Assembly: GCF_963921235.1 (NCBI RefSeq)
Contig: NC_086107.1
Location: 105,216,001 to 105,280,000, forward strand
Direction of reading: 5' to 3'
DNA length: 64,000 nt
From: Mobula hypostoma
Lineage: Eukaryota
Below the pieces are notes generated by a model that worked only from the letters and a program-made list of their open reading frames with translations, searched no databases and was not told where the DNA came from. Made by a program: the position numbers and the translations under genes. Positions 33,315 through 60,031 of the stretch are shown piece after piece. How positions within the stretch are numbered: the first letter of the stretch is position 1; the number at the start of each line of letters is the position of its first letter.

Positions 33315-33339
33315 ATGGCTGATAAAAGGAAGTTACAAG
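33315..33339 (+). CDS. CNOT3: CNOT3 first coding exon (MADKRKLQ-G); exon starts at 33272 with 5'UTR
   Basis: Acceptor ctctcttgcag at 33271, gtcATGG start, donor G|gtaaga. Confidence 0.95.
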
Positions 33340-57300: not shown

Positions 57301-60031
57301 ACAGACTCCTTACGGATGACACCGGAATTGAACTCCAAACTCCGACGCCCCAAACTGTAAAAATGTGGTGCTACCTGCTAGATTACTGTGATATTGCTAG
57401 TAGGTTCTTAGACGTGTTGAAAGAAGTTGTCCTTCAACATGTAAATTCTTGGCAGCTCATTATAACACAGTAGACTGAAGAAATAGCTTTGTAGATATTA
57501 GTTGTGAGGCTAGGAGATACTTTAAGAACTCTGAAGAGAGAGAAAGAGTTTATAGTGATAATGTTAAAGTATGTATTGCATGCAGTTCTGGTCGCCCCAC
57601 CGTAGGAAGGATGTTGAGGCTTTGGAGAGGGTACAGAAGTGGTTTACCAGGATGCTGCCTGGTTTAGAGGGTATGTGCTATCGTGATAGGCTGGATAAAC
57701 TTGGGTTGTTTTCTCTGGAGCAGTGGAAGTTGAGGGGAGATCTGTGAGAGGTTTATAAGATTGTGAGAGGCATAGATAGAGTAGACAGGGTGTATATGTT
57801 TCTCAAGATTGAAATGTCTAACACCAGAGGGCATGCATTGAAGATGAGAGGAGGTAGGTTCAAGCGGGATGTGAGGGGGAAGTTTTAACTCAAAGAGTGG
57901 TGGATGCCTGGAATGTGCTGCCTGATATGGTGGTAGAGGCAAATACATTAGAGGATTTTAAGAGACATTTGGAAAGGCACATGATGTAAGGAAACTGGAG
58001 GGATATGGACATTGCGTGGGTAGGAAGGATTCGTGTTTGAGTGTTTTTGATTTGTTTTTTTAGCAGGTTCAGCACAACATTGTTGGCCAAATGGCCTGTT
58101 CCTGTGCTGCACTGTTCTATGTGCAGAAAAATTTAAAATTTGGGTTTGACAGATACTGCCATGAAATAGAGTTAGCAGGATGTGTTGTCTGAGATTAAAA
58201 CTAACCAAAGTAGAAAACGGCATCATCACCTGAGAGATTGACGTTTCAATGAGGTAAAACTTAAGTGGTTGAAAAATGGCAATGTTGAATGTTTGGGTAT
58301 ATCGGTATAGTAATTAACACACATTCTCAATATTATGGGCAACAAACAACTAAGTAGCTACTAGATCAATTAATTTTTCTGGGCCAGAGGTTACCATCAG
58401 CAGAGACATGTAATGTGGATGTCTAAGACTGAGAGTTTAAGAAAAAAATAGTTTTCTAATTAGCAAACAGCTGAGCCTGTTCTGAGAGAAAGACTCTAGA
58501 TTAGCTTATCTCGCTAGTTAATGAACTGTTGAGTACAGCACTGTGATTGGCTGCTGTAGAGTGTCACTGACAAATCAGCCATCGTTACTCATTCCAGTTG
58601 AGATTTTACTTCCAATCAGAGCAGAGCTTCAGCTGGTGCTAATTTAGCCCTGGGGCCTGAGGACTGGTGGGGAGGAGGGTGGAGGTCGGTTTAACAGTGC
58701 TGAGTTAGGAGGGAGTGCGTCCTCTGCTCCTGTAGAATGACAATGCCTTGTTGGAGATGGACAGGAGCCTGACCAATTTCACTTTTCAGTGTTTTTAAGA
58801 CCCTCTTCCATTTTTTCAGCACAAACATCAATAATGGCAACATCACCAGCAAGCAACAGTAATAGCAATGTGGAAGATGAACTTTTTAATCAGTGTAACA
58901 GCACTCCCACCTCTACGACCTCGAGTTCTCCTGTACCTCTCAGTCCAGCCAACCAGTCTGTGGTGAGTATTTGCATGTCCTTTGTGTTAAATGTGAAGAT
59001 CCAAATTTGCAAGTCATTAAGACGAGCACTTGTCAACACAGTAAAACAATGTCACCTATCTCACTAAGGCCTGAAAGAGTTGTCAAAATGCTGATCCAGG
59101 CACTCAGGTATGTGTTCTGAGATCTCTCTTCACCCTACTGCAGTGTATCAGGTGGTGGGTGTATTTTTACTGCATGTTTCTAGGTCATTGCTTCTGAGCT
59201 GGGAATGAGAGAAGTTGTGATGTATGAAGCTATGACAGGACAGCTCTGTTGCATTCGCTCTTCTTGTTTAAGGTCTGACACTGGTTTTCAGTGTAAATGG
59301 TCTCCCGCTTAAGATTATTTCAATTTTGAGTAGTGTCATTTTTTTCTTGAAAAGGTATTTCTCCTGCTGTGTTTCTTTGTCCATAACAATATGCCAAAAG
59401 ATGGCAACAATCTAGTTATACCAAATGATTATTAGCTGGGCGGTGGTGTAGCGAATTCGGCCTCATTACAAAAAACAGACAAAAAAAAAGCGGCAAAGAA
59501 GAACAAATGATCATTCTTTGCAAGTGTTAATAGTGATGTTATAAAGCCATCGAGTCATGCAGCATGGAAACAGGCCTTTCAGCCTAATTAGTCTATGCTG
59601 ACAAAGATTCCCAAATAAATTAGTTCCATTTGGCCCATATCCTTCCCTTTCCTATCCAAGTGCATTTAAAAGTCGTTAATGTGGCAGACTCAGTCACTTC
59701 ATCTGGCCACTAGTGTCTGTGTGAGCACCCTCTGTTAGACCACTTCATTGCAATCAAGTCAGCCCTTATCTGCTCATGGGCTTTCTGCAGCAAATGAATC
59801 TCAAACCTTTTTGTCATCCCAAACCCCTCATGTCCTGGGGTCCTCTCAGATCAGACTCTGGATGAATACTTTCCTGAAGGACTATCTTACCAGAATGTCA
59901 TAGAAGGGGAGCATTGAACCATGGAACTACTGAGAGGTTGGGCTATGTTTGTGCTAATTTTGAAATCTCTATTTCAGGAAAATCATGAAGATGAGCGGAA
60001 ACGGAGTAGGTCAGACAGCGAAATGAGCATG
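33315..60031 (+). CDS. CNOT3: CNOT3 / CNOT3-like, 3'-partial multi-exon CDS: join(33315..33339,35897..35964,43456..43530,49438..49527,50512..50640,51913..51939,52060..52128,55335..55554,58820..58962,59978..60031), continues beyond window
   Basis: Spliced translation [109 protein letters not shown]...[33 protein letters not shown]...[18 protein letters not shown] is the Not3 N-terminal domain plus linker. All introns are GT-AG, phases are compatible, and the 900 nt contain no stops. Confidence 0.95.
34780..35680. mobile_element. Older inverted pair of Penelope pLTRs in CNOT3 intron (minus 34780-35220, plus 35225-35680)
   Basis: Reverse-complement similarity; decayed hammerhead ctgaagaagggtctcgccctgaaacgtc near 35558. 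Confidence 0.75.
35897..35964 (+). CDS. CNOT3: CNOT3 coding exon 2 ([22 protein letters not shown])
   Basis: ttctgcag acceptor, AAG|gtagaa donor, 68 nt. Confidence 0.95.
36260..38155 (+). mobile_element. Degenerate Rex1/Babar LINE
   Basis: [59 protein letters not shown]; many frameshifts. Confidence 0.85.
38310..38757 (-). mobile_element. Possible solo LTR
   Basis: TG...CA ends; on the minus strand a TATAAAAG (about 38550) precedes AATAAA (about 38400); TSD imperfect (acag/acac). Confidence 0.35.
39953..40393 (+). mobile_element. RTE-clade LINE 3' end
   Basis: [11 protein letters not shown]...[23 protein letters not shown]-terminal [17 protein letters not shown]; gaa-repeat tail. Confidence 0.85.
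41000..41348 (+). mobile_element. Rex1-like LINE 3' end
   Basis: Near-identical to 20490-20830. Confidence 0.85.
43456..43530 (+). CDS. CNOT3: CNOT3 coding exon 3 ([25 protein letters not shown])
   Basis: taatcag acceptor, CAG|gtgagc donor, 75 nt. Confidence 0.95.
44365..45200 (-). mobile_element. Old Penelope-like fragment
   Basis: LSKGLTF, YLLLKIH remnants plus a pLTR end at 44365-44430. Confidence 0.6.
45280..45560 (-). mobile_element. V-SINE (HE1-like)
   Basis: Reverse-complement V-domain gaaggaaactggagcacccagagggaaccca. Confidence 0.75.
46170..47340 (+). mobile_element. Old Penelope-like RT and endonuclease remnant
   Basis: [34 protein letters not shown]. Confidence 0.75.
48366..48851 (+). 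mobile_element. Young RTE-clade LINE 3' fragment
   Basis: Open frame [14 protein letters not shown]...[18 protein letters not shown]...LRFLGHIMR...[15 protein letters not shown] gtatcaaaga (48356-48365 / 48852-48861). Confidence 0.9.
49438..49527 (+). CDS. CNOT3: CNOT3 coding exon 4 ([30 protein letters not shown])
   Basis: tttacag acceptor, ACG|gtaatg donor, 90 nt. Confidence 0.95.
50512..50640 (+). CDS. CNOT3: CNOT3 coding exon 5 ([43 protein letters not shown])
   Basis: tttttataaag (AAG) acceptor, ACG|gtaagt donor, 129 nt; overlaps ORF 50515..50706. Confidence 0.95.
51403..51650 (+). mobile_element. V-SINE (HE1-like)
   Basis: ggcacggtagcgtagc head, V-domain, taaataaat tail. Confidence 0.75.
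51913..51939 (+). CDS. CNOT3: CNOT3 27-nt microexon (NTIDSLNMQ)
   Basis: cttccatttcag acceptor, CAG|gtgagt donor; continues the Not3 sequence in frame. Confidence 0.9.
52060..52128 (+). CDS. CNOT3: CNOT3 coding exon ([23 protein letters not shown])
   Basis: cattcccag acceptor, GAG|gtagga donor, 69 nt. Confidence 0.9.
54010..54352 (+). mobile_element. Old DeuSINE-like (SacSINE1/AmnSINE-type) element
   Basis: cccatgacactattttgaaga...gtgggagcttgctgtgtgcaaattggctgcc matches the recalled Deu-domain and 3' consensus. Confidence 0.6.
54710..55115 (+). mobile_element. Second DeuSINE-like element
   Basis: tRNA-like head gaagattgtgggttcaagcc; gatgagacattaaac...ttcaggtgg...aatattcatccttcagctaacatc. 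Confidence 0.55.
55335..55554 (+). CDS. CNOT3: CNOT3 coding exon ([18 protein letters not shown]...[11 protein letters not shown])
   Basis: ccttctgcag acceptor, G|gtaagg donor, 220 nt; ORF 55317..55577. Confidence 0.95.
55790..57080 (-). mobile_element. CR1 LINE with a younger CR1 3' end nested at about 56190-56660
   Basis: [32 protein letters not shown] present twice. Confidence 0.85.
57118..57390 (-). mobile_element. V-SINE (HE1-like)
   Basis: tctttggactgtggaaggaaactggagcacccagagaaaacccac. Confidence 0.75.
57570..58122 (+). mobile_element. CR1 LINE 3' fragment
   Basis: [29 protein letters not shown]. Confidence 0.8.
58820..58962 (+). CDS. CNOT3: CNOT3 coding exon, Ser/Thr/Pro-rich linker ([13 protein letters not shown]...SPANQSV); may instead start at 58790
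   Basis: ttttttcag acceptor, GTG|gtgagt donor; [18 protein letters not shown] motif typical of vertebrate CNOT3. Confidence 0.88.
59978..60031 (+). CDS. CNOT3: CNOT3 coding exon ([18 protein letters not shown])
   Basis: ctatttcag acceptor, ATG|gtcagt donor; resembles the ENSEDDKKRGRSTDSE exon of vertebrate CNOT3. Confidence 0.85.

What the first reader, a model, noticed from the sequence alone, without database searches (positions are those of the whole stretch)
33315..60031. Divergent CNOT3 that may be a distinct, lineage-retained paralog (ohnolog)
Seen: the protein reads [36 protein letters not shown] and [11 protein letters not shown]...[13 protein letters not shown]. Recalled: vertebrate CNOT3 is very conserved here (EGVEQFEDIWQKLHN, GLAQKVD, VDQFESEVESLSVQ), while invertebrate Not3 has ETFE and KVH. 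Inference: many substitutions in a slow-evolving lineage, ancestral-like residues and an extra intron suggest a second CNOT3 gene from genome duplication, lost in mammals. The N-terminal domain is the ribosome E-site sensor that links decoding to mRNA decay, so a second version could tune codon-dependent decay differently.
Basis: partly seen in the sequence, partly recalled or inferred. Interest (0 to 1): 0.7.

Follow-up and report, generated by a model that had tools for sequence, protein, structure and literature searches.

The report
Sharks use a different CNOT3 copy
Sharks, rays and chimaeras appear to run their mRNA-decay machinery on an ancient sister copy of the essential gene CNOT3 rather than on the copy that bony fishes and humans kept, so genes long treated as the same gene may be different leftovers of an early vertebrate genome doubling.

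Summary
The gene is real: ten GT-AG coding exons (33315-60031) give 300 residues without a stop, and 4 of 4 tested junctions are spliced in 4 of 4 runs. The same gene occurs in 14 named cartilaginous fishes. It differs from chimaera at 4 of 234 N-terminal residues and from coelacanth, bichir or a mammal at 32 of 234. In skate it sits beside Wbp11 and Hebp1, in the block matching human 12p13/22q, whereas mammalian CNOT3 sits beside TMC4 on 19q13; published work places these two blocks on opposite sides of the first vertebrate genome doubling. Trees leave shark-type, bony-type and two lamprey genes unresolved. No bony-type copy turned up in cartilaginous fishes, and no shark-type copy in bony vertebrates (best 120 hits of three searches; no genome held). 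Best reading (0.58): hidden paralogy by reciprocal loss, not a second gene. The 'extra' intron is ancestral, shared with invertebrates. The tRNA-contacting residues K49, R59, E95 and K105 are unchanged, so altered codon sensing is unsupported. An ortholog that moved remains possible (0.25). Interest 0.42.

The parts
33272..33314 (+). probable 5' part of the first coding exon (acceptor AG ends at 33271), open in frame with the ATG
   Evidence: acceptor seen; RefSeq isoforms of Mustelus, Scyliorhinus and Hemitrygon carry the matching in-frame stretch; not tested with reads
33315..33339 (+). coding exon 1 (residues 1-8; ATG)
   Evidence: matches P0003/P0127
35897..35964 (+). coding exon 2 (residues 9-31)
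43456..43530 (+). coding exon 3 (residues 32-56; holds K49)
49438..49527 (+). coding exon 4 (residues 57-86; holds R59)
50512..50640 (+). coding exon 5 (residues 87-129; holds E95 and tRNA-clamp K105)
51913..51939 (+). 27-nt coding exon 6 (residues 130-138)
   Evidence: both joints in 4 of 4 runs
51940..52059 (+). 120-nt phase-0 intron, absent from a teleost genomic read-through ORF, present in three invertebrate loci: ancestral intron
52060..52128 (+). coding exon 7 (residues 139-161)
55335..55554 (+). coding exon 8 (residues 162-234; end of the Not3 domain)
   Evidence: (E 3e-33 to PDB 8bhf CNOT3)
58820..58962 (+). coding exon 9 (residues 235-282; start of low-complexity linker)
   Evidence: identical to P0003
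59978..60031 (+). coding exon 10 (residues 283-300); gene continues past the window

Best explanation
This is the working CNOT3 gene of cartilaginous fishes, and it descends from a different copy of the first vertebrate whole-genome duplication (1R) than bony-vertebrate CNOT3. Both copies survived until after sharks and bony fishes split; cartilaginous fishes kept the copy in the 12p13/22q-type block (Lamb's 4A, skate chromosome 37) and bony vertebrates kept the copy in the 19q13.4-type block (4D). The protein most likely does the standard job: residues 1-111 enter the empty ribosomal E-site and read the P-site tRNA through K49, R59, E95 and K105; residues 112-231 lie against uS7/eS25; the C-terminal NOT-box ties into CNOT1-CNOT2 and brings deadenylation. 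Shown: gene structure, splicing, range among listed hits, conserved contact residues, skate neighbours. Inferred: duplication origin, reciprocal loss, and function (by homology).
For: Synteny: the window's 300 residues are an exact part of Leucoraja P0127, whose chromosome is 13,149,398 bp, the length of Leri_37C. There Cnot3 lies at 5.69 Mb, Wbp11 at 5.73 and Hebp1 at 5.78 (PMC10115646 supplement); LER37 is listed as CLG-H 2beta = gar LG12. An earlier unchecked note puts osteocalcin 258 kb past this window, and chondrichthyan Bgp lies in the Mgp/Erp27/Ddx47 locus of human chromosome 12 (PMC8006282). Mammalian Cnot3 lies in the Prpf31-Cnot3-Leng1-Tmc4 group (PMC6557307); TMC4 is a quadruplicate-D gene and the LG12/12p13/22q genes are quadruplicate A of the same paralogon, with (A,B) against (C,D) split at 1R (PMC8040251). 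Bichir CNOT3 is on a 103.7-Mb chromosome, too short for reedfish 11 (positions to 156 Mb) and, if chromosomes are numbered by size, for 12; it fits 16, which holds TMC4 (inference across assemblies). Trees: shark and bony clades each 99-100% with long stems (0.093 and 0.085) but joined at only 68/30 or 48/62; with part of the linker added, the shark clade joins the lamprey genes instead (83/86; shark+bony in 31 of 1000 bootstraps). Lampreys keep two CNOT3-like genes on different chromosomes. RefSeq calls it 'CNOT3-like' in 10 of 14 named species.
Against: No jawed vertebrate with both copies was found, so the usual witness for hidden paralogy is missing. No tree arrangement is rejected: shark+bony is the best tree on 400 columns (679 of 1000 bootstraps) and is not rejected on 530 (p-AU 0.19 and 0.45). 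Skate chromosome 37 also carries genes of human 19q13 (Kcnc1-2, Lin7b, Tead1-2, Snrnp70, Pold1, Dnaaf3, Ube2m), and where the TMC4 block lies in sharks is unknown (0 hits for Prpf31, Tmc4, Mboat7, Rps9, Ttyh1, Leng8, Epn1 in the held, cut supplement). No neighbouring gene was found in the window itself. The amphioxus linkage group of CNOT3 was not determined. Absence of a bony-type copy rests on lists cut at 120 hits.
Confidence: 0.58

Rival explanations
1. Plain ortholog: jawed vertebrates had one CNOT3; it moved to the WBP11/HEBP1 neighbourhood in the shark stem (or to the TMC4 neighbourhood in the bony stem), and both stems evolved fast for a short time.
For: [quoted passage not shown]
Against: Needs a move that lands in a paralogous block of the same ancestral chromosome, plus long stems on both sides (32 of 234 differences) followed by near-stasis in sharks (4 of 234 between skate and chimaera), and almost no shared jawed-vertebrate branch (0.009). 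The 19q13 genes on LER37 that Lamb tabulates belong to another paralogon; KCNC3 and SYT5 map to reedfish 11, which does not fit the bichir CNOT3 chromosome length.
Confidence: 0.25
2. One reading: cartilaginous fishes keep both ohnologs; a bony-type CNOT3 sits on a poorly assembled GC-rich microchromosome, and this gene is an additional, possibly specialised copy.
For: The skate assembly misses 7.4% of BUSCO genes and its authors could not place the fourth CLG-H segment; Tsen34 and U2af2 exist in skate; the '-like' names could imply another gene holds the plain name; searches ignored proteins under about 390 aa and list only 120 hits.
Against: A full-length bony-type shark protein should score among coelacanth, turtle and sturgeon, all of which were listed (cut-offs 927 and 1210 bits). 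None of 36 unnamed or poorly named proteins compared looked like one. The skate gene name has no copy suffix. The gene is as constrained as a sole essential copy (0 of 111 and 0 of 131 differences skate-chimaera in the E-site bundle and the C-terminal 131 residues).
Confidence: 0.14

Closest known systems
Human CNOT3 (PDB 8bhf, 9c3h; Pfam Not3 PF04065 and NOT2_3_5_C PF04153)
   Same: Domain layout (in relative P0003), exon boundaries apart from one intron, K49/R59/E95/K105 and E20/E70; 7 of 111 differences in the E-site bundle.
   Different: About 25 differences in residues 112-234 (rodent), about 67% identity over the full length to tetrapods, one retained ancestral intron, different chromosomal block.
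Chondrichthyan RefSeq 'CNOT3-like' / 'CNOT3' / 'CNOT3a' (e.g. XP_059809615.1, XP_055519122.1, XP_042201034.1)
   Same: The same gene: 98-100% over residues 1-234.
   Different: Annotated by similarity only; no paper found that treats it as a separate lineage.
Lamprey CNOT3-like A (XP_075908602.1) and B (XP_078728936.1, XP_032822809.1)
   Same: Share several ancestral residues with the shark gene; 29 and 44 differences in 234.
   Different: Two genes per species; relation to the shark and bony genes unresolved.
Hidden paralogy by differential ohnolog loss (Nodal1/Nodal2, PMC12344233; 68 differentially retained ohnologues in PMC10115646)
   Same: Same proposed process.
   Different: Here the gene is an essential housekeeping subunit, the loss would be reciprocal across the shark/bony split, and no witness species with both copies is known.

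Membership tests
CNOT3/Not3-Not5 subunit | N-terminal Not3 domain (PF04065) | tested here: met
   P0003 residues 4-232, E 2.6e-94; window differs from P0003 at 1 of 234; exon 8 hits PDB CNOT3
CNOT3/Not3-Not5 subunit | C-terminal NOT-box (PF04153) | tested here: inconclusive
   present in P0003 residues 579-704; the window ends before these exons
CNOT3/Not3-Not5 subunit | P-site tRNA contact residues K49, R59, E95, K105 | tested here: met
   residues named in PMC11583848; identical in window and 32 of 32 rows
CNOT3/Not3-Not5 subunit | intact, spliced transcript | tested here: met
   no stop in 300 codons; 4 of 4 tested joints in 4 of 4 runs, whose RNA status is a guess of the tool
CNOT3/Not3-Not5 subunit | binds CNOT1-CNOT2 and the ribosomal E-site | not testable with these tools
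   inferred from homology
Ortholog of bony-vertebrate CNOT3 | firmly sister to the bony clade, to the exclusion of lamprey genes | tested here: inconclusive
   68/30 and 48/62 on 400 columns; broken on 530 columns but not rejected
Ortholog of bony-vertebrate CNOT3 | conserved neighbours (PRPF31, LENG1, TMC4, MBOAT7) | tested here: not met
   nearest listed skate genes are Wbp11 and Hebp1; list is partial (30 rows, 27 names), and the block's genes could not be placed
1R ohnolog in paralogon 4 / CLG-H | the two genes lie in paralogous blocks of one ancestral chromosome | tested here: met
   LER37 = CLG-H = LG12; TMC4 in quadruplicate D, LG12 genes in A; human positions of WBP11 and HEBP1 are recalled
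1R ohnolog in paralogon 4 / CLG-H | a species that holds both copies | tested here: not met
   none among listed hits; lampreys have two genes but unassigned
1R ohnolog in paralogon 4 / CLG-H | amphioxus CNOT3 on CLG-H | not tested
   no amphioxus or hagfish protein was listed by any search
Second, additional CNOT3 gene | a bony-type CNOT3 coexists in the same genome | tested here: inconclusive
   genome not held; none in three capped lists

The most novel reading that the evidence does not exclude
Two 1R copies of an essential CCR4-NOT subunit coexisted past the shark/bony split and diverged mainly in the helical domain that touches uS7/eS25; each lineage then kept a different one (or sharks still keep both), so sharks and humans couple translation to mRNA decay through non-orthologous sensors with measurably different ribosome engagement.
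Probability: 0.12. Interest if true: 0.7.

Novelty: new member of a known kind. Interest (0 to 1): 0.42.

Why it matters
If right, a gene treated as single-copy and orthologous across vertebrates is not: shark and human CNOT3 would date the first genome doubling, not the shark/bony split, which would mislead phylogenomic and rate studies that use it. It would also show that redundant copies of an essential housekeeping gene can outlast the origin of jawed vertebrates and then be lost reciprocally. For mechanism, it offers a natural full-length variant with an almost unchanged E-site bundle and about 25 changes in the second helical domain, useful for testing what that domain does. A change in codon sensing is not indicated.

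Tried and rejected
Own genome: not held, so copy number and neighbours could not be read directly. Neighbour genes in the window: 225 open frames of 45+ codons outside self-repeats, from 1-33300 and 60040-64000, against Pfam: one frame passed Pfam's cut-offs (27539-28513, RVT_1 and ALKBH8_N), the other hits were below cut-off; shorter exons would be missed. Laying contigs at 80% likeness showed no paralog-like contig on the exons among the rows shown (103 difference rows and 1318 pieces not shown); a paralog would probably fall below that threshold, so this is no evidence. ESM Atlas gave only phylum-level clusters. Earlier findings: nothing on CNOT3. Skate chromosome 38 is a different human-19q13 block, not the TMC4 block (human positions recalled). 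Lamb's ohnolog tables do not hold CNOT3 (0 hits in the held, cut file). Zebrafish cnot3a/b chromosomes were not found in PMC6570471. Rejected: pseudogene (intact, spliced, conserved); intron gain (shared with invertebrates); recent duplicate or retrocopy (same intron-bearing gene from chimaera to rays); identity with teleost cnot3b (both teleost types nest in the bony clade). The ungapped difference list after residue 161 is an artefact of a one-residue insertion in that human isoform and was not used. Trees left out Takifugu3a, Galendromus and P0293, used 18 rows, 21 rows and 16 rows. No structure or complex was predicted.
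Full report
Observation. The window holds the first ten coding exons of a CNOT3-family gene on the + strand (33315-33339, 35897-35964, 43456-43530, 49438-49527, 50512-50640, 51913-51939, 52060-52128, 55335-55554, 58820-58962, 59978-60031). All introns are GT-AG and the 900 nt translate without a stop. All five quoted peptides are in the model. Logan contigs of four runs (four organism codes, four studies; RNA status is the tool's guess) join all four junctions between 49527 and 55335, including the 120-nt intron (4 of 24 listed runs were laid, on 49400-55600 only). 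The other five junctions rest on identity with RefSeq proteins: the 300 residues are an exact part of Leucoraja P0127 and differ from Hypanus P0003 at one site. P0003 carries Not3 (residues 4-232) and the NOT-box (579-704).

Range. The same gene is listed for 14 named cartilaginous fishes, from Callorhinchus to rays (40 of 65 members read in the largest cluster). RefSeq names it CNOT3-like in 10, CNOT3 in 3 and CNOT3a in 1. In the full-length search the five shark-type clusters are followed by coelacanth at 65%, so no bony vertebrate in the list has this type. Conversely, no bony-type protein of a cartilaginous fish appears among the best 120 of 1122, 2924 or 2259 hits, although sturgeon, bichir, coelacanth and many tetrapods do; none of 36 unnamed or poorly named proteins looked like one. 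These lists are capped, two of them skip proteins under about 390 aa, and the genome is not held, so single copy is likely, not shown. Lampreys have two CNOT3-like genes on different chromosomes. No hagfish or amphioxus protein was listed.

Divergence. Over residues 1-234 the skate-identical sequence differs from chimaera at 4 sites, from coelacanth, bichir and a rodent at 32 each, and from the lamprey genes at 29 and 44; bichir differs from coelacanth and rodent at 11 and 12. Of 27 fixed shark/bony differences in the two conserved domains, 14 arose on the bony side, 11 on the shark side and 2 are unclear, by majority of seven outgroup rows. Only 6-7 differences fall in residues 1-111, and 25-26 in 112-234.

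The intron. Three invertebrate genomic loci (L032, L033, L075) have a GT-AG phase-0 intron at the same codon boundary; L010, L036, L064, L076, L066 and L073 read through it, and the stretch 87-200 is unbroken in L067, L070 and L078-L080. A teleost-like ORF read from unspliced sequence (P0027) runs through the site without an intron. In human, K286 is in exon 10 of NM_014516 (PMC6570471 supplement), which fits one intron fewer if the ATG is in exon 2 (recalled). So bony vertebrates most likely lost an old intron; it says nothing on duplication. Two tortoise isoforms lack exactly residues 130-138, which could be an alternative acceptor or a kept intron.

Trees. On 400 conserved columns (36 rows, LG+C20) shark and bony clades each have 100/99 with stems of 0.093 and 0.085, but their union has 68/30 on a branch of 0.009; it occurs in 679 of 1000 bootstraps, and the two lamprey genes group in 25. 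With 18 rows and LG+G4 the union has 48/62 and none of six alternatives is rejected (p-AU 0.12-0.48). With about 530 columns including alignable linker, the best trees put the shark clade with both lamprey genes (83/86; 62/55; shark+bony in 31 of 1000), yet shark+bony is not rejected (p-AU 0.19, 0.45). The honest result is a four-way polytomy: what an old duplication predicts, but not proof.

Synteny. P0127 lies on a 13,149,398-bp chromosome, the length of Leri_37C in the skate paper's supplement. There Cnot3 has its promoter at 5.69-5.70 Mb, Wbp11 at 5.73 and Hebp1 at 5.78. Duplicated names in that table carry -1, -2; Cnot3 does not. LER37 is given as CLG-H 2beta, equal to gar LG12, and the other beta copy of H as 'missing in all gnathostomes?'. 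Mammalian Cnot3 lies in the Ndufa3-Tfpt-Prpf31-Cnot3-Leng1-Tmc4-Mboat7-Tsen34-Rps9 group (PMC6557307). In Lamb's paralogon 4 (CLG-H), TMC4, TTYH1, PRKCG, CACNG8, EPN1 and EMP3 are quadruplicate D (reedfish 16, Xenopus 7, human 19) and EMP1, PDE6H, ARHGDIB, GPRC5A and GSG1 are quadruplicate A (gar LG12, reedfish 12, human 12p13/22q), with (A,B) split from (C,D) at 1R. The two schemes pair the segments differently, but in both the LG12 segment and the remaining segment fall on opposite sides of 1R (my inference for the skate scheme). Against this: LER37 also carries human 19q13 genes, so the chromosome alone does not decide. Those that Lamb tabulates belong to paralogon 6, and KCNC3 and SYT5 map to reedfish 11, which exceeds 155 Mb, whereas bichir CNOT3 is on a 103.7-Mb chromosome, which fits 16; the assemblies may differ and 15 or 17 are not excluded. 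None of the nine D-quadruplicate human genes is among the 27 LER37 names seen (30 of about 100 rows), but the block could not be placed in skate. Human positions of the LER37 genes not in Lamb's tables are recalled.

Mechanism. In the human structure, residues 1-111 bridge the subunits in the E-site and touch the P-site tRNA, and 112-231 contact uS7 and eS25; E95A, R59S and K105S reduce or abolish recruitment (PMC11583848). All four contact residues are invariant here. The protein therefore most likely senses slow decoding as human CNOT3 does and recruits CCR4-NOT through its NOT-box (inferred). Shark-side changes S110 and T112 lie just after K105, and most differences are in the uS7/eS25-facing domain, so modest differences in ribosome affinity are possible but untested. 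Its near-invariance from chimaera to rays fits a sole essential copy (Cnot3 null mice are embryonic lethal; PMC12746107).

Literature seen. PMC10115646: passages, section 6, supplement file 2 part 1 and search rows (file cut; file 1 unreadable); the paper's list of 68 differentially retained ohnologues was not in the SI Table 3 sheet as held, so CNOT3 could be on it unseen. PMC8040251: passages, section 9, supplement rows (cut). PMC8006282, PMC6557307, PMC11583848, PMC12746107, PMC12344233, PMC6170504, PMC11979771: passages only. PMC6570471: passages and supplement passages. Searches for a described shark CNOT3 paralog returned none; the library lacks most subscription journals.

Verdict. A real, intact, spliced gene; probably a non-orthologous ohnolog of human CNOT3 kept by reciprocal loss (0.58), possibly a moved ortholog (0.25) or one of two copies (0.14). 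The process is known (Nodal1/Nodal2; differential ohnologue retention); this case seems undescribed. New member of a known kind; interest 0.42.

Noticed in passing
window 33272-33314 (+): The stretch before the ATG is open in frame and nearly the same in ray and shark RefSeq isoforms: a conserved 5' UTR or an N-terminal extension, which would matter because the N-terminus enters the ribosomal E-site.
   Followed up: partly
window 54311-54639 to 55335 (+): Minor spliced joint from a repeat-rich intron segment into exon 8 in one run (depth 5.7 against 204): a cryptic exon or alternative start.
   Followed up: no
window 50512-50640 (+): RefSeq isoforms of Mustelus, Hemitrygon and Narcine skip this 129-nt exon in frame, removing E95 and K105; such a form should not bind the E-site.
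   Followed up: no
P0243, P0246 (Gopherus): Tortoise isoforms lack exactly residues 130-138, the extent of the ray's 27-nt exon.
   Followed up: partly
P0011/P0160 and P0286/P0458 (lampreys): Two CNOT3-like genes on different chromosomes in three lamprey species, differing at 44 of 234 N-terminal residues; they group together in only 25 of 1000 bootstraps on 400 columns.
   Followed up: partly
window 27539-28513 (-): 325-codon open frame with a reverse-transcriptase domain (E 3e-19), a fairly intact LINE fragment.
   Followed up: no
Leri_37C (PMC10115646 supplement): One skate microchromosome joins human 22q12-13/12p13 genes with 19q13.33-43 genes; KCNC3 and SYT5 of that 19q13 set lie on reedfish 11, and in Xenopus on chromosome 7 with the TMC4 block.
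   Followed up: partly
PMC6170504: Visinin, another gene of the TMC4-type segment, is reported lost from cartilaginous fishes, and the skate paper could not place that segment: it may be eroded or unassembled in sharks.
   Followed up: no
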